Source of the DNA: a virus
Taxonomy: Duplodnaviria; Heunggongvirae; Uroviricota; Caudoviricetes
IMG/VR virus record: IMGVR_UViG_2737471993_000002
Reading direction: 5' to 3' (one strand)
DNA length: 64,000 nt
Under the pieces are notes generated by a model that saw only the letters and a list, made by a program, of their open reading frames with translations, was not told where the DNA came from and searched no databases. The translations under genes and the position numbers were made by a program. Shown here piece by piece: positions 24,066 through 33,071 of the stretch. Each line of letters begins with the position of its first letter. The first letter of the stretch is position 1.

Positions 24066-24449
24066 ATGCTGAACGAGAAACGTTCTATACAAACTATTCG
24101 CGATTGCACGAGTATTATCGAGACTCATGTGCTGAATCAGCACAAGCTTGAAGTACGTAAGCTCAATAATGACGCTATTGAACCGGAAGACTCACGCTTC
24201 ATCGTTACCTTCAAAGACGATGTTGAGCGCGCTGGTGCAAGCGTGAAGCCATTAGCTGAAGCAATTTACCTGAATGGTCGTGTTCGTTTTGTAGTCAAGC
24301 CAGCTAAACAGTACCCTGAGCTGTCTCGTTTTATCGAGGCTTTTTCGGAGGTTATTGAACATTCTATTCGCCGCTTCTTACGCAATCATGGTAGCATTGT
24401 CAGCACGGTTAAGGCTGATGATTCTGCTACAAAATGGCTCCTACACTAG
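24066..24449 (+). CDS. hypothetical protein
   Basis: 127-aa ORF after a ~220-nt intergenic region; no recognisable motif. Confidence 0.45.
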   Translation: MLNEKRSIQTIRDCTSIIETHVLNQHKLEVRKLNNDAIEPEDSRFIVTFKDDVERAGASVKPLAEAIYLNGRVRFVVKPAKQYPELSRFIEAFSEVIEHSIRRFLRNHGSIVSTVKADDSATKWLLH

Positions 24450-25186
24450 ATAGCGCATATTCAAAAGATCTAAGCGAGTTTCCTCATAAAGGGGAGACTC
24501 GTGTTGTTCGTTTTGGCTTTCTTATCAATGAAGCCTCCCTCTATAAAATCTCAGAAATTGAAATCATTGAACCAGAAGATGACATTTGCCTGTATGTCTC
24601 TATGGAACGTGTAGGTGCGCGCAACCAAGGCGACCTGAGCGAATTCATCTTAGATCGAGCGGATGAAGATGCCCCTGAAGAAGAGATTATCAAAGAGGTG
24701 CTCCAGTCCGGGCTTCTGGACGAAAACAAAAATACGATCGCTGGTAGGATAGCTCTGCGTGAATATAGTTTTGTTGAAGACGGTAATGAGATCGAATGTT
24801 ACCAGGTAGCTGGTGTCGAAACTGTCAGAGAGCGTCGTCAGCGAGGATTGTGTCACCGTACCTATCTCTTTCTTCTTCATTGGTATGAGCATTTAGTCTG
24901 CGACGATACACAAACCATTCCTGGTGCTAAGATCTGGGCAGGGCCTCTCATGCGAACCGGCGATGTGCGTATATACAATGCCAAAACAGAAACGTTCGAA
25001 GATGTGTTAGGTGAGTACGGGATGGGGAAAGAAACCGGATTTTTGCCGTGGAACAGAGGATTGTTGCTTGATGCAGAGTTAAGCTCTTGGCTCCCAAACA
25101 AAGTGCAAGTTAACGTTCAGAAATTTATCGTACTTATCATCTCCCGCAAAACAAGAACTCCAGTAGGTTTATACCTAAAAGATTAA
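24434..25186 (+). CDS. hypothetical protein
   Basis: 250-aa ORF overlapping the previous stop; followed by an intrinsic terminator. Confidence 0.5.
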   Translation: MAPTLDSAYSKDLSEFPHKGETRVVRFGFLINEASLYKISEIEIIEPEDDICLYVSMERVGARNQGDLSEFILDRADEDAPEEEIIKEVLQSGLLDENKNTIAGRIALREYSFVEDGNEIECYQVAGVETVRERRQRGLCHRTYLFLLHWYEHLVCDDTQTIPGAKIWAGPLMRTGDVRIYNAKTETFEDVLGEYGMGKETGFLPWNRGLLLDAELSSWLPNKVQVNVQKFIVLIISRKTRTPVGLYLKD

Positions 25187-25191
25187 AAATC

Positions 25192-25214
25192 AGGCGACTT
25201 TGGTCGCCTTTTTT
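25192..25214 (+). terminator. rho-independent terminator
   Basis: AGGCGAC-TTTG-GTCGCCT hairpin followed by TTTTTT. Confidence 0.7.
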
Positions 25215-25362
25215 GTTAACAGCCATTAATTCTCGCCTAAAAATTCTAAGGCAGCACCTACCATTTAACCTTTACACCACAGCCGTAGGCATTTAGGCTA
25301 TATCACATATAAGAAAACAAGTTGTTTCAGACGATAATTATATACGCAAAGGGAACTCTCCA

Positions 25363-26031
25363 ATGACCAAGATCTTTGTGGTTGGCGGCACAAAGGGCGG
25401 GCCTGGCAAATCCACCGTTGCCCAGCAAATTGCCGTTTGCCTGAAAGTCAAAAAGAAGAAGAAGGTTTATATTACCGATATAGATATTCAGCGCACGACA
25501 ACGAGCTGGTGTGAAGACCGTCGACAGAACGAAGACCTTGAGCTGATTCCTTTTGCATACGTTCAGGATGACATCATTAAGCACCTAAAATCGCTTCAGG
25601 GTAGAGCTGAGTTTGTAGTGGTAGATGCTGGTGGCTTCGACTCCGAAATTCAGCGACAAGCGATGCTGATGGCTGACGTTATCATTATCCCGCTGCGTCC
25701 TAAGCGTCGTGATTTGAAATCTTTACGTGACATCGATCCTATTATCGACAATGTTCGCAATGTAAACGATAAAGTGAAGGTCCGCGCGGTCATGAACCAG
25801 TGCCCGGCTTTGCCATCACAAGTGTCTCGCATTCTGGCGGCTAAAGAGATTGTTGAGACGTTTGGCATCGAGTCTGCGCCAGTCAATCTATATAACCGCA
25901 ACGTCTATGATGATGCGGAAGAGTCTGGTCGTTCTATCTTTGAAATGACCGGTAGCGAGCGCGACAAAAAGGCGGAAGCCGAGTTTGAAGAATTTGTAGA
26001 TTATCTGTTGAGTCTGGAGGAAGAAGAATAA
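25363..26031 (+). CDS. parA: ParA-family partition ATPase
   Basis: N-terminal deviant Walker A (VVGGTKGGPGKST), 222 aa, followed by a small overlapping partner gene. Confidence 0.8.
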   Translation: MTKIFVVGGTKGGPGKSTVAQQIAVCLKVKKKKKVYITDIDIQRTTTSWCEDRRQNEDLELIPFAYVQDDIIKHLKSLQGRAEFVVVDAGGFDSEIQRQAMLMADVIIIPLRPKRRDLKSLRDIDPIIDNVRNVNDKVKVRAVMNQCPALPSQVSRILAAKEIVETFGIESAPVNLYNRNVYDDAEESGRSIFEMTGSERDKKAEAEFEEFVDYLLSLEEEE

Positions 26032-26390
26032 TGTCCATGAAAATGGGTGACCTAGCAAAGCGCAAAGAGCCTGATGCACCGGCTAAGAACACAACTCCTT
26101 TGCGCCAACCAGTCAGACCACAGGGACGCCCGACTCGTGGCAAAGAGAAAATTAAAAGCCGCACAATGTCACTGGAAGACGAATACTTCGAACTGCTGGA
26201 GATGATGAAGTTCATCCCTCGCTTCGAGAAGTTCACTCGTTCTGACGTGATTCGAGCAGCCATTTTCCATCTGGCAGAGAAGTCACCGCAGGAAATCGAG
26301 GACATCGTGAAGCTTAACGAGGCGATCACAGCTGCCGACGTTACGATGCGTACCGATGAAATTAAACGAGAGTTGATGAAGAAAGGTTGA
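26031..26390 (+). CDS. small partition-associated DNA-binding protein (ParB/ParG-like)
   Basis: 119-aa basic protein translationally coupled to parA (ATGA-type overlap); role inferred from context. Confidence 0.4.
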   Translation: MSMKMGDLAKRKEPDAPAKNTTPLRQPVRPQGRPTRGKEKIKSRTMSLEDEYFELLEMMKFIPRFEKFTRSDVIRAAIFHLAEKSPQEIEDIVKLNEAITAADVTMRTDEIKRELMKKG

Positions 26391-26392
26391 TT

Positions 26393-26419
26393 ATATTGGG
26401 CGTTTGTTACGCCCAATAT
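26393..26419. other. 10-bp stem hairpin between the partition operon and the KAP NTPase gene
   Basis: ATATTGGGCG-loop-CGCCCAATAT; no T-run, so could be a terminator, an RNA element or a protein-binding palindrome. Confidence 0.4.
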
Positions 26420-26432
26420 ATGAATTAAAGGA

Positions 26433-28136
26433 TTGATACTAATGGAATCGATAGAATCATTTCTAAAAAATTTTCTAGTTTCAGATCATCGGGTTGCCGT
26501 CATAAAAGGAGATTGGGGCGTTGGTAAAACTCATTATTGGAATAGTTTTTATACTAAGCATTCTGAAGGATTAGATTTTAATGCATATTCGTATGTTTCT
26601 TTGTTTGGGGTTAACTCTATTGGTGATATTAAAAAAGCTCTTTATCATTGTGCCACACCAATTAATGAAAAGAAATATAAAGAACTAATTTTATCTGAAA
26701 CGGATCGAACTATGATTCGTTATAGAAATGGGTTTTTGGGATGGTTGAAATACAACTCCTTGTCAAAATTTTTAATACATTTCGGAAAGAACGATTTTTT
26801 TGGGTTCAAAACAGATAACCTGCTGTCATCTCTTGAGTATAAATTTGTTAATAATTATTTGGTTTGTATTGATGATGTTGAAAGAAAAGGTAATTCGCTA
26901 GAAGTTAAAGAAATTATGGGGGTAATTGATGAATTGGCAAGAAGAAAAGGCTGCAAAGTTGTTCTAATTTTAAATGAAGATAATTTACATGATGAAACTG
27001 CAAAAAAACAGTTTTTAGAGTACAGAGAAAAAGTAATTGATGTCGAAATAAAATATGATCCTACGCCTGAGAAGAACTTACGTAAAGTTTTTTATGAAAC
27101 TGATTCTGATTTTCTTTTGTTAAAAGTCTTAGCAAATGACTTAGGCATTAAAAATATCCGTATATTAAATAAAATAAAAACATCTCTGGTTAATCTTAGG
27201 AATGAGCTAAGCTTGGCAGAGGATAAGGTTAGAGAAAGTTTTATCAATAGATTGGTTCTGTTTTCAGTGGTTTACTATTCTGGTGTTCCAGGTGTTGATT
27301 ATGCCTTGTTTAAAGAATCAATTAAAAACATACATGTATTTGATTACATGTTAGATGATAAAAAGGATGATTCTGTATATTCATTTATTAATAGTCTTGA
27401 TATTATTTATGAACGAGCGGAAATTGCTTTCGATGATGACATAGATTTTTATCTCAAGAATGGTTATCTTTCTACTGAAAGCAATATTCGAGGTATAATA
27501 GAAGAAAAAAATAAACAATATAAAGAACACAAGGCTTTATGTGAGGTTAACAATGTTTGGGATATTTTTAGTGACTCATTCAAGGACAATGAATCTGAGT
27601 TTATTTCTAAGATAAAATGTGTAATTAACGACAATCTTTCACACATACCTGTTGCTCACTTCATAGGCTTGATTGATATCTTAAATAGATTGGAGATTGA
27701 TTGTGATAGTTATATAGAGGCATATGCAGATGCCTTTGTTAGCCAAGATGATGCTTATACTGCTTTTCGGAATTTGTATGTAGAGATATTTGGTAACGAA
27801 AAGTTAGGTCTGCTAATTCAAAAAAAATTGATGGATAAGAAGCCTGAAGAGACTAATTTAGAGAATGTTTTATACAAAATAATTGAAGGCAAATTTAATC
27901 ATAGTGACATAGCATATCTTAACAGTTTCTCTGAAGATGATTATTTAAAGTGGATATTATCCCGCAATCAGGATGCTTTGGATTTAGTGAGAAAGGGGTT
28001 GCTCAGATTCAAAAGTATGCAAGAACTAACAGAAGAACAGCAAAAAATCACGAATAAAGCAATAGGTGCATTAACGAAACTGGCCTCTAGATCAAGTCTT
28101 AACAAACTACGTGTGAGCAGATTGCTTAATAATTAA
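26433..28136 (+). CDS. KAP-family P-loop NTPase (AT-rich cargo gene)
   Basis: Walker A GDWGVGKTH and Walker B LVCIDDVER fit the KAP family. The gene is visibly more AT-rich than flanking backbone genes. Confidence 0.6.
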   Translation: MILMESIESFLKNFLVSDHRVAVIKGDWGVGKTHYWNSFYTKHSEGLDFNAYSYVSLFGVNSIGDIKKALYHCATPINEKKYKELILSETDRTMIRYRNGFLGWLKYNSLSKFLIHFGKNDFFGFKTDNLLSSLEYKFVNNYLVCIDDVERKGNSLEVKEIMGVIDELARRKGCKVVLILNEDNLHDETAKKQFLEYREKVIDVEIKYDPTPEKNLRKVFYETDSDFLLLKVLANDLGIKNIRILNKIKTSLVNLRNELSLAEDKVRESFINRLVLFSVVYYSGVPGVDYALFKESIKNIHVFDYMLDDKKDDSVYSFINSLDIIYERAEIAFDDDIDFYLKNGYLSTESNIRGIIEEKNKQYKEHKALCEVNNVWDIFSDSFKDNESEFISKIKCVINDNLSHIPVAHFIGLIDILNRLEIDCDSYIEAYADAFVSQDDAYTAFRNLYVEIFGNEKLGLLIQKKLMDKKPEETNLENVLYKIIEGKFNHSDIAYLNSFSEDDYLKWILSRNQDALDLVRKGLLRFKSMQELTEEQQKITNKAIGALTKLASRSSLNKLRVSRLLNN

Positions 28137-28305
28137 GTATTCATGACCTGTTTCTGTATATAAATAATAAGTAACTTATTAAATATACGGAAGCAGGTCT
28201 TTCAAAAGATACCCACCAGAACAACTCCCTTCCGTTTCCACTTCCAAAAACTGCCACCAATCGCTATCATCAGCTCATTGTGATAAGTAAGTAACTACCT
28301 ACCAG

Positions 28306-29055
28306 GTGAGCCACATGAGCCAAATCTTTTTCGACACCATCGACAACGACCAGTACGACTTCATGACAGAGTGGAATACCGCTGTTATGGATAAGTGGGT
28401 TGCTGAAAACATTGGTTTGTCGCGCTGCAAAGACGAGGCTGAACTCTTCGATACGAAGTGGTTTGATTACCGCGACATGCATCCTCTTATGGCCACCTGT
28501 CTGTTTACGGAGGCATACAAACGTCAGTACTCAAATATCATGCTGACGCACGGTCGCGAACACTTTGAAACAGCTCCGTTCACCACCGGGTTAAAACGCC
28601 TGCCTTATCAGGAGTTGTCGACTGCCAATAAAACGTCGCTATGGAAAGCACGCCAGTTTGCTGACCGCTATTGCTGCTCATACGACTACTTTATCTCCAC
28701 CGTTCTTTCCGCAGCTGCACGACGTCTGTGGGACAAGCTGCCTCGCCCACAGCATTTGTGGCAGCCAGAACTGATTGAGATATTTGAAGAGAAATTAGCC
28801 AGACGCGCAACAACCCGTCTGGATGACTCTCTGGTTAGCTTTAAGCATATAGGAGACATGCAGTTCAACCCGATCCAGGAAAGCTATTTTGAGTGGATTC
28901 TGGAGCGTTTACGCACCATCCCCCGCAGCAAGCGCATACGCGCAATTTTCTCCGCTATCTGGCTAATGGAAATCGTTCCAGAGCGCCTTATTTCCGCCCA
29001 CTTTCCAGAAGAACTGGAAGAAGCACGGCGGTTTATTGATCCCCTATCTAATTAA
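28306..29055 (+). CDS. hypothetical protein (replication module)
   Basis: 249-aa ORF upstream of the helicase gene; no recognisable motif. Confidence 0.5.
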   Translation: MSHMSQIFFDTIDNDQYDFMTEWNTAVMDKWVAENIGLSRCKDEAELFDTKWFDYRDMHPLMATCLFTEAYKRQYSNIMLTHGREHFETAPFTTGLKRLPYQELSTANKTSLWKARQFADRYCCSYDYFISTVLSAAARRLWDKLPRPQHLWQPELIEIFEEKLARRATTRLDDSLVSFKHIGDMQFNPIQESYFEWILERLRTIPRSKRIRAIFSAIWLMEIVPERLISAHFPEELEEARRFIDPLSN

Positions 29056-29098
29056 CTAATACTAGAAAACAATTTGTTTAAAAAACAAAGGAAAGCAC

Positions 29099-30439
29099 AT
29101 GACCGAACTTTGCCATACAGGACGCGGGCTGTCCGAAGAGTTTGATGAAGATTTCCAGAACAGACTGACGGCATATTTTTGTCGTGATCACGAGTTTCTT
29201 ACTCGTGCGGGAGATCTGGTTGTGCCTAGCCAATTTGCCAATGCGGCCAATGCCATATTGGTTAATATGGTTTCGGGCTATTACCGTATGTACAAGAGCG
29301 CGCCCTCTTCATCTGCAATTCTGGATATGCTTAAGCGTGCGAAACGCGATAAGACTATCCGTGAGGAACTATTCGCCGATGTTGTTGCTGCGTTTAAGCG
29401 CATCCTTGCAGAAAAATTGTCCGATACCTCGTACATGGTTGACCAGGTATCAACCTTCGCAAAAAGCGTAGCGTTTGATGATGCTCTGATTAAGGCTGCT
29501 GAACTGAAAGAGAAAGGCGACTTTCAGGGGGCGATGGCAATCATGGCCAAGGTTCAGCAGATTGGATCGAACGAAGCGACCGGAATCTATGACTACTACA
29601 CCTCCGCAAGTGAGCGATTGAAAGCGCGTGAATATGAGGCTTCAGAGGAGTATGTACCAAACAGTATTACAACAGGACTCCCTCTTCTCGATAGGTTGCT
29701 GTACCAAAAAGGCTGGGCAAAGCGCGAAATGGTGCTTTTCATGGGGTTCGCTAAATCCGGTAAATCGACCGCAATGGGTGAGTTTTCCATAAACGCAACG
29801 CTTGCTGGCTACAATGTTCTGTATCTCTCGCTGGAGGTTCACACCAACATTTTGTCCGACCGCTTTGATGCAAGATTGTCGGAGACGGAAATGTCCAAGC
29901 TGGTGGAACGGCGCGATGAAGTTCATCGTAAGTTGGCAGAGTTGGGAGCCACTAAGGGGATTGGTAGTTTGTGGGTTGTTGAGCGTCCGTCAGGAAGTAT
30001 GTCACCGGCAGATCTGGACCGTATGCTTAACAGCATGAAAGCCAATGGCATGGTGCCTGACATGCTTGTTGTCGACTACGCAGATTTGATGCGTGCCAGT
30101 TATGACCTTCGTGATGATCGCGCCAACATTCGTAGTATCTACACCGATTTACGTGCTCTTTATGACAAACACAACGTTGCTGGTATCACAGCATCGCAAA
30201 CAAACCGTGAAGGTGGCGCGTCAGAAGTTGCCACAATGATGCACGCTGCCGACAACATCGAAAAAGTACGTATTGCTGACCTGGTAATAACGATCAACAA
30301 AACCGAAGAAGAAGAAGCGAAAGGAGAGGCTCGTCTCTACTTTGCTGGTTCGCGTAACCAGCAGGGAGGGATCAGCATTCGCGTTAAACAAAACCTCGAA
30401 CAAATGCGCTTCATTGAGCGAATCTTAGACGTTACCTAA
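29099..30439 (+). CDS. replicative DNA helicase (DnaB / gp41-like)
   Basis: Walker A GFAKSGKST preceded by a DnaB-like GLPLLDRLL segment; RecA-type core throughout the C-terminal half. Confidence 0.7.
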   Translation: MTELCHTGRGLSEEFDEDFQNRLTAYFCRDHEFLTRAGDLVVPSQFANAANAILVNMVSGYYRMYKSAPSSSAILDMLKRAKRDKTIREELFADVVAAFKRILAEKLSDTSYMVDQVSTFAKSVAFDDALIKAAELKEKGDFQGAMAIMAKVQQIGSNEATGIYDYYTSASERLKAREYEASEEYVPNSITTGLPLLDRLLYQKGWAKREMVLFMGFAKSGKSTAMGEFSINATLAGYNVLYLSLEVHTNILSDRFDARLSETEMSKLVERRDEVHRKLAELGATKGIGSLWVVERPSGSMSPADLDRMLNSMKANGMVPDMLVVDYADLMRASYDLRDDRANIRSIYTDLRALYDKHNVAGITASQTNREGGASEVATMMHAADNIEKVRIADLVITINKTEEEEAKGEARLYFAGSRNQQGGISIRVKQNLEQMRFIERILDVT

Positions 30440-30520: not shown

Positions 30521-31702
30521 ATGAGCCTTTATGTTATATCAACATTTAGGTTGGTCACAATATTGCCTGTTAAAAGTGGAATTATCGTGAGCGAGCTGAA
30601 AGAGCTAATTGCCGAATTAGATTTTGAACAATGGTTGGATACTGAAGGTATCGTTTATCGACGTGGAGGCGTGAGTGCTCGCGGTCGTGAAGTGAATATC
30701 AAAGAGTGTCCGGTATGCGGCAGCTCCAACTGGAAGGTATATTTCAATCTGACCAGTGGCGTCGGTAAATGCTTCGCTGGTGATCATCCCGAAGAGATTC
30801 AGTTCAATAAGCTGGTCTTCCTCAAGCACTACAGCGGCAAATCACGACGACAGTTCGAGGAATATGTGCAGAACGCCCTTCTTTCCCAGGGGTGGGCACC
30901 AAAGAAAGAAGAGCTAGTGCTTGCAAGCACAGTCGAGTTAGAGGGGCCAGTTGCACTCCCTCGTCATTACGAGCTTCCTATAGATGGCCGTCTTCCAGAC
31001 TATCTGGTTGAACGAAACATATCACCTGAAATGGCAAAGTATTTTGACCTACGATACTGCGTCGAAGGCAAGCACGCTTATGTAGATCCGTATACAGATC
31101 AGGTAAAAGGGCAGATATTCGATATGCGAATACTGATACCGGTTTACGATCTGGATGGGGTAATGAAGACATTTCAGGGACGAGACATTACCGGTACAGC
31201 AGAACGCCGCTACCTCTTTCCTATGCAGCTTCCAGCTTCAGGTAAGTTTCTCTACAACGGCCATAATGCAGTCGGCAAACAGACTGTAGTTGTCTGTGAG
31301 GGGGCGTTCGATGTTATGGGGGTTAAACGAGCTATTTTTGACGAAGAAACATTACGTGATTACGTGGAACCAATAGGAACGTTCGGGATGCATCTATCTG
31401 GTAACACCACTCAGGATGCAGAAGATCAGTTAGGCGCGTTCCTGACGCTCAAGGCGCGTGGGTTACGTAATGTGATCATGATGTGGGATAGTGAAAAGCA
31501 AGCTATACGCAACACTATGGCCGCAGCCAGGCGACTGAGCAGTATTGGTCTTAATGTGAAAATTGCATGTTTGGGCGAGGAAGGACTCGACCCCGGCGAT
31601 GCGACCCCGGGGCAGATTATCAAAGCCTACTATTGCGCAAAACCTTACTCACGACAGCTTGAACTCTTAAGCAAGGTGAAAGGCATTGCAGCACTAGTTT
31701 GA
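30521..31702 (+). CDS. DNA primase (zinc-binding plus TOPRIM)
   Basis: CPVCGS...C zinc-ribbon-like motif and acidic TOPRIM-like segment (VVCEGAFDV...MWDSE). Start placed at the ATG following the shared AGAAAAACAC leader; the track ORF starts at 30449. Confidence 0.6.
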   Translation: MSLYVISTFRLVTILPVKSGIIVSELKELIAELDFEQWLDTEGIVYRRGGVSARGREVNIKECPVCGSSNWKVYFNLTSGVGKCFAGDHPEEIQFNKLVFLKHYSGKSRRQFEEYVQNALLSQGWAPKKEELVLASTVELEGPVALPRHYELPIDGRLPDYLVERNISPEMAKYFDLRYCVEGKHAYVDPYTDQVKGQIFDMRILIPVYDLDGVMKTFQGRDITGTAERRYLFPMQLPASGKFLYNGHNAVGKQTVVVCEGAFDVMGVKRAIFDEETLRDYVEPIGTFGMHLSGNTTQDAEDQLGAFLTLKARGLRNVIMMWDSEKQAIRNTMAAARRLSSIGLNVKIACLGEEGLDPGDATPGQIIKAYYCAKPYSRQLELLSKVKGIAALV

Positions 31703-32839
31703 ACCAGTATTAGTCACATACACATTGACCGAAAATGATTTAACTTCTGTATTGAAGTTGTCAGTCATTACCGCGAGGTAGGCATTCTTGGTATCTCTGA
31801 ATTGCTTCAGGATGATTTGAACGTTATCGGTGCAAACAAACGAGGTAGCCAGATTGCCTCCTTTCTCTGAAAAATCCTTCAGGAAGGTGCAGTCAACTTT
31901 GCCATCATTAGCGGTGAAGGTAGCATCATCACCCTGCCAGGTAAATGTAGCGTTAACGCCCTTATCAATGGATTTAGCAATAAGTCGCTGGGTGGCGGAT
32001 TTTGTTTTGGCTTTGGAAGCCGGCGCTCGATATTTGCCGCTTTCTTTCAGTTCTGCAATGTAATCGCAGCCTCTTTTTTCTCCTTTATCGCAAGCAGTCT
32101 GATAAAGGTCGGCTGCTTTTTTATAGTCCTTTTTTACACCTTCCCCATTCTCATACATAATGCCAAGATTGGTTATGGCGTCGGCGTTTCCAAGTTCCGC
32201 TGCCTTTTTATACCACTTAACTGCTTCTGCATCATTGCGTTTAACGCCTAACCCATCATCGTATAGTATTCCTAATCCTATCATAGCTTCTGAACTGCCT
32301 TGGTCTGCCGCCTTTTTGTAATAAGTAAAAGCCTTTTTATAATTCTTTTTAACGCCTTTACCATATTGGTAATACGCCCCAAGAACTGAAGTTGCTTTAA
32401 CATACCCGGCATCAGAGGCTAGTTTGAAGTATTTAATGGCGAGTGCATGATCTACTTTACCAAGCATCCCCTTTTGATAAATAGCACCAAGATTGTTGTA
32501 GGCTCTACCTTCACGAGCATCCCCCGCAAGTTTGTAGTACTCAACAGCTTTATTTAGGTCTTTATCTACACCCTCGCCAAATGTGTACATAACTCCAAGT
32601 GCATAATATGCTACTTTATCTCCCTTTTCTGCAGCTAGATCAATCCACTTCTTGGCCTCAACTACATCCTTATCAAAACCATTGACACCATCAAAATAAT
32701 TTGTACCTAACTCACTTTGTGCTGCGGTATCCCCTGCGGTAGCGGCTTCTATCAGCGTTTGTTTATTGTCTGCGTTAACGAATCCAGAGTTAAAAAGCAA
32801 AGTTAATGCCAGCAACGATGAAGATTTTATGTATTTCAT
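31694..32839 (-). CDS. secreted Sel1-repeat protein
   Basis: Signal peptide MKYIKSSSLLALTLLFNSGFVNA, about seven Sel1-like repeats, and a ~110-aa C-terminal domain. Convergent with, and slightly overlapping, the primase 3' end. Confidence 0.65.
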   Translation of the reverse strand: MKYIKSSSLLALTLLFNSGFVNADNKQTLIEAATAGDTAAQSELGTNYFDGVNGFDKDVVEAKKWIDLAAEKGDKVAYYALGVMYTFGEGVDKDLNKAVEYYKLAGDAREGRAYNNLGAIYQKGMLGKVDHALAIKYFKLASDAGYVKATSVLGAYYQYGKGVKKNYKKAFTYYKKAADQGSSEAMIGLGILYDDGLGVKRNDAEAVKWYKKAAELGNADAITNLGIMYENGEGVKKDYKKAADLYQTACDKGEKRGCDYIAELKESGKYRAPASKAKTKSATQRLIAKSIDKGVNATFTWQGDDATFTANDGKVDCTFLKDFSEKGGNLATSFVCTDNVQIILKQFRDTKNAYLAVMTDNFNTEVKSFSVNVYVTNTGSN

Positions 32840-33071
32840 GTTTTTTTTCTGTTGATATAGGATGAACAGTTTAGACGCGGCAAGCGTCAAGTGTGCGAAA
32901 AAGGGTACTTAAATTTAGTTAATATGTCAGCTTTGTTGATTTAGTTTATGGTCGGTAAAGTTACTGGGAAACTAATAACCATAAGAAATAGTACGCCATT
33001 TAATTATTGTGGCACTGCTCGTGTTTTGATTAACTAATACCTGCGATAAATATAAATAAAGGGAAGCCAAC

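What the first reader, a model, noticed from the sequence alone, without database searches (positions are those of the whole stretch)
26393..28200. AT-rich KAP-family NTPase inserted between the partition and replication modules
The 567-aa ORF carries KAP-type Walker A (GDWGVGKTH) and Walker B (LVCIDDVER) motifs. It is much more AT-rich than the genes on either side (by eye roughly one third G+C against about half; this needs computing). It stands alone, is separated from parAB by a 10-bp stem hairpin, and has no role in virion or replication that I can see. KAP NTPases recur in anti-phage defence islands, so this looks like horizontally acquired cargo, possibly a single-gene defence or exclusion function. 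The C-terminal ~300 aa have no motif I recognise.
Basis: partly seen in the sequence, partly recalled or inferred. Interest (0 to 1): 0.75.

Follow-up and report, generated by a model that had tools for sequence, protein, structure and literature searches.

The report
Candidate KAP-NTPase defence gene in phage-plasmid hotspot
A foreign, AT-rich single gene for a soluble KAP-type NTPase sits in a swappable cargo slot of an E. coli SSU5-like phage-plasmid where relatives carry known anti-phage genes, so it is very probably an untested one-gene immunity factor and not part of the plasmid's own machinery.

Summary
An intact ORF (26442-28136, 564 aa from the ATG) carries KAP-type Walker A and B motifs and passes the Pfam KAP_NTPase cut-off. 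Its G+C is 0.306 against 0.459 for the window (z = -5.1; GC3 0.25), the lowest in 64 kb. The window is an E. coli SSU5-like phage-plasmid.

The gene fills a slot between the stop codon of the small gene after parA and a conserved terminator-like hairpin (28145-28199). In 78 related loci this slot has 13 states. These include empty (~193 bp), PD-T4-3-like, PD-T7-5-like, several DUF2971 (PDC-S31) genes, membrane-protein pairs, and three KAP alleles (99%, 77% and 44% identical) on 90-100% identical backbones. Only 28 of 248 backbone-carrying complete E. coli genomes have the gene.

The protein is a Cdc6/Orc1-/STAND-like ATPase followed by a ~300-aa alpha-solenoid. It has no transmembrane segment and no recognisable enzymatic effector. 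The solenoid occurs only in this architecture (1,634 clusters). Homologues are solo cargo in ICEs and chromosomal islets. It matches PADLOC candidate PDC-S49 in the NTPase domain only, and is not PifA or QatA.

Best reading: a single-gene NTPase-switch defence or exclusion protein. No phenotype has been tested. It is a new member of a known kind.

The parts
25363..26031 (+). parA (ParA/MipZ-type partition ATPase). Conserved backbone, left flank of the slot.
   Evidence: Pfam MipZ, AAA_31, CbiA and ParA hits. It is 82-100% identical in relatives.
26031..26390 (+). 119-aa gene after parA ('parB' by position only). Its stop codon is the left border of the variable slot.
   Evidence: No Pfam hit. 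It is 91-100% identical in all 78 loci. Every cargo type begins directly after its stop codon.
26391..28144 (+). AT-rich cargo cassette (1754 bp). It consists of a cassette-specific hairpin, the KAP gene and a short tail.
   Evidence: Homology with other slot states ends at 26390 and resumes at about 28145. Insert G+C is 0.31.
26392..26420 (+). Cassette-specific hairpin with a 12-bp perfect stem and a 5-nt loop. It is a probable attenuator or terminator of parAB transcription, through which the KAP gene would be read.
   Evidence: dG -17.9, z = -6.3. Other cassettes and other KAP alleles carry different hairpins at the same place, several with T-runs. No sigma-70-like site lies between the hairpin and the start codon.
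26442..28136 (+). KAP-family P-loop NTPase gene, 564 aa (the ORF is also open from the TTG at 26433).
   Evidence: (PHROG 4740, full length). dN/dS is 0.22 against the second E. coli allele, so the gene is under purifying selection.
26442..27212 (+). N-terminal NTPase module (aa 1-257): P-loop core plus helical lid, with a Cdc6/Orc1-/STAND-like fold.
26508..26534 (+). Walker A, GDWGVGKTH (the KAP-type GxWGxGKT form).
   Evidence: G23, W25, G26, G28, K29 and T30 are invariant in 44 sequences. PifA has the same form, GAWGSGKT.
26724..26816 (+). Low-confidence, poorly conserved insert (aa 95-125) between Walker A and Walker B. It is not a membrane helix.
   Evidence: pLDDT below 50. Mean identity is 17%. 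The maximum 19-residue Kyte-Doolittle hydropathy in the whole protein is 1.35.
26859..26885 (+). Walker B, LVCIDDVER (the KAP-type hhhhDDxER form).
   Evidence: C142, D144, D145, E147 and R148 are invariant. It aligns with the PifA motif VMDDLDR.
27213..28133 (+). C-terminal all-helical alpha-solenoid domain (aa 258-564). It is the most divergent part and is the proposed sensor.
28145..28199 (+). Conserved AT-rich hairpin with 24 paired positions. It is the right border of the slot and the probable intrinsic terminator of the parAB(-cargo) transcript.
   Evidence: It is present in all 13 slot states, including the empty one. The + strand RNA folds at dG -28.7 (z = -8.5) against -19.2 for the - strand. 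A T-run follows it in most variants.
28306..29055 (+). 249-aa conserved backbone gene upstream of dnaB and primase, right flank of the slot. No family match.
   Evidence: It was the anchor used to fetch 80 related loci. It is present in 248 of 5426 complete E. coli genomes, always on plasmids.

Best explanation
The gene is horizontally acquired cargo in a recombination-driven accessory slot of an SSU5-like phage-plasmid. The slot lies between the stop codon of the second partition gene and the operon's terminator hairpin. It most likely encodes a single-protein anti-phage or anti-mobile-element immunity factor that is expressed in the plasmid (lysogenic) state.

Shown:
- the foreign composition;
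- the cassette borders;
- the variability of the slot, with defence-type alternatives;
- the two-domain architecture, a KAP/AAA+-STAND-like NTPase plus an alpha-solenoid;
- the absence of membrane helices and of any recognisable enzymatic effector;
- purifying selection;
- solo occurrence on other mobile elements.

Inferred mechanism: the fast-diverging C-terminal solenoid acts as the sensor for an invader protein or nucleic acid. Binding releases the NTPase switch, and NTP-dependent oligomerisation follows, as in Cdc6/Orc1, TnsC, RdrA and NLR-type ATPases. The assembled NTPase is itself the effector. It would act either by runaway NTP hydrolysis or by clamping DNA or replication proteins, and this blocks invader replication.

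Expression is inferred to come from low-level read-through from parAB across the cassette's 12-bp hairpin, because there is no room for a promoter between the hairpin and the start codon.
For: Foreign origin: G+C is 0.306 against 0.459, z = -5.1, and GC3 is 0.25.

Hotspot: 13 slot states occur in 78 loci with conserved flanks. Alternative cargo hits PADLOC PD-T4-3 (E 1.3e-23, n=25), PD-T7-5 (E 4.5e-139) and PDC-S31/DUF2971. DefenseFinder independently reported PD-T4-3 and PD-T7-5 in E. coli/Shigella SSU5-type elements (bioRxiv 10.1101/2025.09.12.675607). Prevalence is 28 of 248 backbone-positive complete E. coli genomes.

The protein: KAP Pfam hit above cut-off. PDC-S49 hit at E 1.8e-22. PDCs are candidates found embedded in BREX, DISARM or type I RM systems.

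Allele pattern: KAP is 77% identical on a backbone at least 99% identical, and 40-44% identical on an 82-93% backbone. The C-terminus is the most divergent part and dN/dS is 0.22.

Context of homologues: solo cargo in ICE transfer clusters, next to IS66/T5orf172, or as single-gene islets.

Precedent: single-gene KAP NTPases with C-terminal regions of unknown function protect against phages and need Walker B and the C-terminal region (PMC13552941). The KAP system 'Reve' from P4 hotspots protects E. coli (PMC13586616).
Against: No phenotype exists for this family. PDC-S49 is an untested candidate, and the match covers mainly the NTPase domain (profile positions 8-214 of 624).

Not every occupant of the slot is demonstrably defensive. 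The 357-aa protein, the membrane-protein pairs and the lipoprotein have no hit.

The protein has no effector domain and no conserved catalytic constellation in the C-terminus, so the killing or blocking step is conjecture.

It lacks the membrane insert present in PifA and in the validated EF_KAP.

The higher C-terminal divergence between the two E. coli alleles comes with higher dS (0.84-0.98 against 0.13-0.41). That points to recombination mosaicism, not positive selection.

No promoter-like site was found, so expression is unverified.
Confidence: 0.6

Rival explanations
1. It is an inter-element exclusion factor and not a phage defence. It would interfere with incoming plasmids, ICEs or rival phage-plasmids, for example at DNA entry or establishment.
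For: Family members sit inside the conjugative-transfer gene clusters of two ICEs, at different positions in each. The ATPase fold is closest to DNA-loading or DNA-bound AAA+ proteins such as Cdc6/Orc1, TnsC and MuB. A Klebsiella SSU5-like plasmid lowers both phage plaquing and plasmid uptake, although those authors attribute this to an RM system (PMC8969562).
Against: The neighbours in the same slot match systems known as anti-phage. The KAP proteins tested so far were anti-phage. Position inside an ICE does not establish function. This reading overlaps with the best explanation and does not exclude it.
Confidence: 0.15
2. It is a replication or partition accessory of the phage-plasmid, for example an initiator or helicase-loader-like AAA+ protein, because it lies between parAB and the dnaB-primase genes.
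For: The best structural matches are Cdc6/Orc1 and ORC subunits. It lies immediately upstream of the replication genes.
Against: It is absent from 220 of 248 backbone-carrying E. coli genomes. The slot can be empty or hold unrelated genes. The composition is foreign. Homologues occur as solo genes in ICEs and chromosomes with no replication module nearby. The Cdc6 similarity is confined to the generic ATPase core plus lid.
Confidence: 0.05
3. It is a counter-defence or otherwise selfish cargo gene (an anti-defence factor or an addiction-type toxin) that benefits the phage-plasmid and not the host.
For: Accessory hotspots of mobile elements also hold anti-defence genes. SSU5-type elements carry the Rad anti-retron system. 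A toxin-antitoxin pair occupies the neighbouring slot in relatives.
Against: There is no match to any anti-defence or toxin family. A 564-aa NTPase with a sensor-like solenoid is atypical for anti-defence proteins. There is no partner antitoxin gene. The recognisable slot neighbours are defence genes.
Confidence: 0.08
4. It is a moron of other or no current function. The slot would then be a permissive insertion site, and the association with defence genes would be coincidental.
For: Several slot occupants have no defence annotation. No phenotype is known.
Against: dN/dS is 0.22 between alleles. The family is large, with conserved catalytic motifs in 1,634 clusters. Divergent alleles have been recruited repeatedly to the same slot in Escherichia, Salmonella-type and Klebsiella elements.
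Confidence: 0.12

Closest known systems
Single-gene KAP P-loop NTPase anti-phage proteins (EF_KAP and three metagenomic KAPs, PLoS Biol 2026, PMC13552941; 'Reve' from P4 satellite hotspots, NAR 2026, PMC13586616)
   Same: All are one gene with an N-terminal KAP NTPase followed by about 300 aa with no known domain, carried as cargo of a mobile-element hotspot. In EF_KAP both Walker B and the C-terminal region are required.
   Different: EF_KAP has two membrane helices, one of them inside the NTPase domain. This protein has none. The sequences of EF_KAP and Reve were not available, so homology beyond the KAP domain is untested. The hosts, the carrier elements and the C-terminal folds may all differ.
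PADLOC candidate PDC-S49 (guilt-by-embedding candidates, bioRxiv 10.1101/2024.01.29.577857)
   Same: It is the only PADLOC family hit (E 1.8e-22). The protein lengths are similar (about 620 aa) and both are single-gene.
   Different: The best match covers only aa 6-226. A weaker model reaches aa 377 (E 1.4e-5). PDC-S49 is itself untested. This copy is not embedded in a BREX, DISARM or RM system.
PifA of the F plasmid (KAP NTPase that excludes phage T7)
   Same: Both have the KAP-type Walker A (GxWGxGKT) and Walker B (DDxDR/ER) motifs. Both are plasmid-borne and lie near the replication and partition genes.
   Different: The profile comparison aligns only 72 columns around Walker B, with probability 35%. 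PifA (741 aa) hits the PADLOC PifA, QatA and PDC-S20 models, which this protein does not hit. PifA has a hydrophobic insert and a repressor partner, PifC.
STAND / NLR-like bacterial immune NTPases (Avs) and RdrA of RADAR
   Different: There is no N-terminal or C-terminal effector domain. The Pfam nSTAND3 hit is below cut-off (16.3 against 27.2 bits). No partner gene is present. Cdc6/Orc1 score higher than the NLRs.
Defence hotspots of temperate phages and satellites (P2/P4; Rousset et al. 2022, PMC9122126)
   Same: Conserved flanks bracket mutually exclusive, compositionally foreign cassettes that include known defence systems, and the elements carry no dedicated integrase or transposase at the hotspot.
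   Different: Here the hotspot is in a phage-plasmid, at the 3' end of the partition operon and upstream of its terminator. I found no description of this particular slot in the papers searched.

Membership tests
KAP family P-loop NTPase (Pfam PF07693) | Match to the family model at or above the curated cut-off | tested here: met
   24.8 bits against a gathering score of 20, aa 15-257, profile positions 12-278 of 293. All listed full-length homologues carry PF07693.
KAP family P-loop NTPase (Pfam PF07693) | KAP-type Walker A GxWGxGK[ST] and Walker B hhhhDDx[DE]R | tested here: met
   GDWGVGKT and LVCIDDVER lie in invariant columns. The same forms occur in PifA, GAWGSGKT and VMDDLDR.
KAP family P-loop NTPase (Pfam PF07693) | Transmembrane helices inserted within the NTPase domain. 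This is typical of the family as described by Aravind et al. 2004 (own knowledge) and is seen in EF_KAP. | tested here: not met
   The maximum 19-residue hydropathy is 1.35, with no TM-grade segment. The insert at aa 95-125 is low-confidence and unconserved. The feature is typical but not universal, so the protein is a soluble KAP.
PifA (F plasmid T7 exclusion) | Full-length homology to PifA | tested here: not met
   There is no PADLOC PifA hit at E <= 1, whereas PifA itself scores 963 bits. hhalign aligns 72 columns with probability 35%.
QatABCD (QatA is a KAP NTPase) | QatA model match plus neighbouring qatB, qatC and qatD genes | tested here: not met
   There is no QatA hit. The cassette holds one gene.
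PADLOC PDC-S49 candidate | Full-length match to a PDC-S49 model | tested here: inconclusive
   The hit is at E 1.8e-22 but covers only aa 6-226 against profile positions 8-214 of 624. A third model reaches aa 7-377 at E 1.4e-5. It is probably a sister clade.
STAND NTPase / Avs-type sensors | STAND NTPase model match and tripartite effector-NTPase-sensor architecture | tested here: not met
Mobile-element defence hotspot | Conserved flanks with mutually exclusive variable cargo that includes recognised defence systems, plus an empty state | tested here: met
   There are 13 states in 78 loci, with 5 empty. PD-T4-3-like, PD-T7-5-like and PDC-S31 cargo are present.
Anti-phage defence system (functional definition) | Reduces phage propagation when expressed, in a way that depends on catalytic residues | not testable with these tools
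   No experimental data were found for this family.

The most novel reading that the evidence does not exclude
This soluble KAP clade has a fixed NTPase-plus-alpha-solenoid architecture, comprises at least 1,634 clusters at 50% identity, and is always a solo gene. It may be an effector-less, STAND-like immune sensor in which the assembled NTPase is itself the weapon, acting by NTP exhaustion or by clamping invader DNA or replication proteins. Its solenoid half would be exchanged by recombination to retarget specificity. If so, the slot between the partition genes and their terminator in SSU5-like phage-plasmids would be an undescribed defence hotspot. Its unannotated occupants (a 357-aa protein, three types of two-membrane-protein pairs, a lipoprotein) would then be further new systems.
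Probability: 0.3. Interest if true: 0.65.

Novelty: new member of a known kind. Interest (0 to 1): 0.45.

Why it matters
SSU5-like phage-plasmids occur in about 5% of complete E. coli genomes (248 of 5426) and in clinically important Shigella, Salmonella and Klebsiella lineages. A swappable immunity slot on them would influence which phages, including therapeutic ones, can infect their hosts.

DefenseFinder-based surveys of these elements did not report this gene. It is therefore a concrete, cheap-to-test candidate. The two natural E. coli alleles (77% identical, differing mostly from about aa 345 onward) provide a ready-made domain-swap experiment for locating specificity.

The slot also supplies several other unannotated candidates. 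The result is incremental for the field, because KAP single-gene defences and phage hotspots are both already established concepts.

Tried and rejected
- NCBIfam: no family.
- PDB by sequence: only chance-level hits.
- Foldseek against PDB with the full model: nothing with E <= 0.001.
- Rfam scan of 25200-29200: only chance-level eukaryotic snoRNA hits.
- Promoter and terminator scan: no more sites than in shuffled sequence, and no promoter upstream of the gene. The 12-bp hairpin is not called as a terminator because it lacks a T-run.
- 'PDC-S49' occurs in no paper of the library.
- Sequences of the validated KAP proteins (EF_KAP, Reve) could not be obtained, because no supplements are held. 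Direct comparison was therefore impossible.
- PifA homology was considered and rejected beyond the KAP core.
- A membrane-associated mechanism like that of PifA, Tmn or EF_KAP was considered and set aside, because no TM segment exists.
- Positive selection on the C-terminus was considered. dN/dS is 0.23-0.30 and dS is elevated, so recombination mosaicism fits better.
- A modular 'KAP plus exchangeable effector' architecture was considered. It was rejected for this clade because the C-terminal domain is found only behind this NTPase.
Full report
OBSERVATION. The ORF is real. The ORF listing reports 26433..28136 (567 aa from a TTG). The ATG at 26442 has an AAAGGA Shine-Dalgarno sequence 9 nt upstream. 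RefSeq relatives are annotated from this ATG at 564 aa, and 44 homologues start at the same point. I therefore take 26442-28136 as the gene. Walker A (GDWGVGKTH, 26508-26534) and Walker B (LVCIDDVER, 26859-26885) lie in invariant columns of the family alignment. Pfam KAP_NTPase is matched above its curated cut-off, at 24.8 against 20 bits.

The compositional claim holds quantitatively. ORF G+C is 0.306 against 0.459 for the window, z = -5.08 against all non-overlapping windows of the same size, and this is the minimum of the whole 64 kb. GC3 is 0.25 against 0.41-0.57 in neighbouring genes. The hairpin after the partition genes exists but has a 12-bp perfect stem (26392-26403 / 26409-26420; dG -17.9 kcal/mol, z = -6.3).

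WHAT THE WINDOW IS. The region is 100% identical to an E. coli ~110-kb plasmid. It is 97-98% identical to records deposited as Escherichia phages (CMS-2020a, Cyrano, PhiR41_1), and its flanks are 82% identical to Salmonella phage SSU5. It is therefore an SSU5-like phage-plasmid. parA is confirmed (ParA/MipZ family). The 119-aa gene after it has no family hit and is a 'parB' by position only.

THE SLOT. I fetched 80 related loci from IMG/VR using the conserved 249-aa gene downstream. In each I measured the interval between the stop codon of the 119-aa gene and that downstream gene. The 78 informative loci, plus the window, fall into 13 sequence-unrelated states:
- empty, about 193 bp (n=5);
- a reverse-strand 255-aa GIY-YIG protein (n=25);
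- a reverse-strand 357-aa protein, sometimes with a DUF2971 gene (n=18);
- the KAP gene (n=9, including the window);
- several different DUF2971 genes;
- a DUF2971 gene plus a 398-aa protein;
- three types of two-gene membrane-protein pairs;
- a lipoprotein.

PADLOC assigns the GIY-YIG protein to PD-T4-3 (E 1.3e-23), the 398-aa protein to PD-T7-5 (E 4.5e-139) and the DUF2971 proteins to candidate PDC-S31 (Pfam). A 2025 survey using DefenseFinder independently lists PD-T4-3 and PD-T7-5 among SSU5-type elements of E. coli and Shigella. It mentions neither a hotspot nor the KAP gene.

The left border of every cassette is the base after the stop codon (26390). The right border is a conserved AT-rich hairpin (28145-28199) present in every state, including the empty one. 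That hairpin folds much better as + strand RNA (dG -28.7, z = -8.5) than as - strand RNA (-19.2), because of G.U pairs. It is followed by a T-run in most variants. I read it as the intrinsic terminator of the partition operon, with cargo inserted between the last gene and its terminator.

Each cassette brings its own, different GC-rich hairpin directly after the stop codon. Only 21 nt separate it from the start codon, and no promoter-like site lies upstream. Expression by read-through from parAB is thus the most economical inference, but it is unverified.

PREVALENCE AND ALLELES. Of 5426 complete E. coli genomes, 248 carry the backbone gene, always on plasmids. Of these, 28 carry the KAP gene, also always on plasmids of mostly ~110 kb. 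So about 11% of these elements have it.

Three KAP alleles occupy the same slot. One is about 99% identical. One is 77% identical on a backbone at least 99% identical (L011). One is 44% identical on a backbone about 90% identical (L058). Klebsiella SSU5-like elements carry a 40% allele in the same position, while their backbone proteins are 82-93% identical.

Between the two E. coli alleles dN/dS is 0.22, so both are under purifying selection. dS rises from 0.13-0.41 in the N-terminal module to 0.84-0.98 from about aa 345 onward. This indicates a recombinant mosaic in which the C-terminal half derives from a more distant lineage. It does not indicate positive selection.

THE PROTEIN. The family is large and uniform. 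The search for homologous proteins returned 1585 hits of about 565-595 aa, full length, across Gammaproteobacteria and beyond. The protein matches PHROG 4740 (unknown function) end to end. AlphaFold2 on a 44-sequence alignment gives pLDDT 84.

A 30-residue insert (aa 95-125) between Walker A and Walker B is low-confidence and unconserved. It is not hydrophobic enough to be a membrane helix, and the maximum 19-residue hydropathy in the whole protein is 1.35. This is therefore a soluble KAP protein, unlike PifA and the validated EF_KAP.

CONTEXT ELSEWHERE. Homologues are always solo genes. Two sit inside the transfer-gene clusters of ICEs, at different positions, in Salmonella salamae and E. coli. 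One lies beside IS66 and a T5orf172 gene in Oleispira. Others are single-gene insertions between housekeeping genes in Pragia and a Pseudomonas relative.

COMPARISON WITH KNOWN SYSTEMS. In PADLOC the protein hits only candidate PDC-S49 (E 1.8e-22), and mainly over the NTPase domain. PDCs are untested candidates found embedded in BREX, DISARM or type I RM loci. It does not hit the PifA or QatA models, whereas F-plasmid PifA hits both. A profile comparison with PifA aligns only 72 columns around Walker B.

Experimental precedent now exists for the kind. Single-gene KAP NTPases fused to about 300-aa regions of unknown function protect Enterococcus against phages and require both Walker B and the C-terminal region (PMC13552941). 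A single-gene KAP system, 'Reve', from P4 satellite hotspots protects E. coli (PMC13586616).

MECHANISM. Shown: foreign cargo in a defence-type hotspot; an intact, constrained NTPase with a sensor-like solenoid; no membrane anchor, no effector domain and no partner gene. Inferred: the solenoid senses an invader component. The NTPase then switches and oligomerises, as its structural relatives do. The assembly itself blocks the invader, by NTP exhaustion or by clamping DNA or replication proteins. I put 0.6 on the overall defence or exclusion reading and considerably less on any particular effector step.

Rivals:
- exclusion of plasmids or ICEs instead of phages (0.15; it overlaps with the main reading);
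- other or no current function (0.12);
- counter-defence or addiction (0.08);
- a replication or partition accessory (0.05). This is contradicted by the gene's absence from 220 of 248 relatives and by the empty slots.

VERDICT. The gene is a new, untested member of an already established kind, namely single-gene KAP NTPase defence candidates carried in mobile-element hotspots. The specific slot in SSU5-like phage-plasmids and the soluble, effector-less architecture are the modestly new elements. Interest is 0.45.

Noticed in passing
window 38400-39950 (ORF 38593..39927, - strand); tRNA genes at 37840-38397: There is a second AT-rich island (G+C 0.31-0.35). It encodes a 444-aa protein with a hydrophobic N-terminus and a just-sub-threshold Pfam putAbiC (abortive infection) match, 21.4 against 22 bits, and has no PADLOC hit. 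It lies directly after a cluster of four tRNA genes, Asn, Tyr, Thr and Ser. It may be another defence-type cargo gene.
   Followed up: partly
window 24066-25186 (+): There is a second variable slot upstream of parA. Here it holds an overlapping 127-aa plus 250-aa gene pair with no Pfam or PADLOC hit. In p09EL50 the slot is replaced by a GNAT toxin and a DUF1778 antitoxin (L002 862-1660). In L058 the pair is only 37% and 33% identical while the flanks are over 90% identical.
   Followed up: partly
window 28145-28199: A conserved AT-rich hairpin with 24 paired positions forms the right border of the slot. G.U pairs make it far more stable as + strand RNA (-28.7 against -19.2 kcal/mol). The outer stem GACCTGYTTC/GAAGCAGGTC is kept even in Klebsiella elements, while the loop varies. 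It is a probable operon terminator and may also serve as the recombination anchor for cassette exchange.
   Followed up: partly
loci L004, L018 and others (357-aa, reverse strand); L003, L051, L062, L080 (two-gene membrane pairs); L066 (225-aa lipoprotein): Several occupants of the same slot have no Pfam or PADLOC match. The 357-aa protein is the second commonest cargo (n=18). By position they are candidates for further unknown defence or exclusion functions.
   Followed up: no
L085 8001-9779 (Salmonella salamae ICE); L089 9565-11340 (E. coli ICE): KAP family members (591-592 aa) are embedded as solo genes inside the type IV secretion gene clusters of ICEclc/PFGI-1-type elements. They sit at different positions in the two elements.
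   Followed up: no
window 31694-32890 (- strand): A 398-aa Sel1-repeat protein with a signal-peptide-like N-terminus is encoded convergently, right after the primase gene. In some relatives this position holds a different gene.
   Followed up: no
window 26442-28136 compared with L011 5122-6825: The two E. coli KAP alleles form a mosaic. Residues 46-135 are 97-100% identical (dS 0.13-0.37), but from about aa 345 onward identity drops to 47-63% with dS of about 0.9. This suggests a recombination breakpoint inside the gene.
   Followed up: partly
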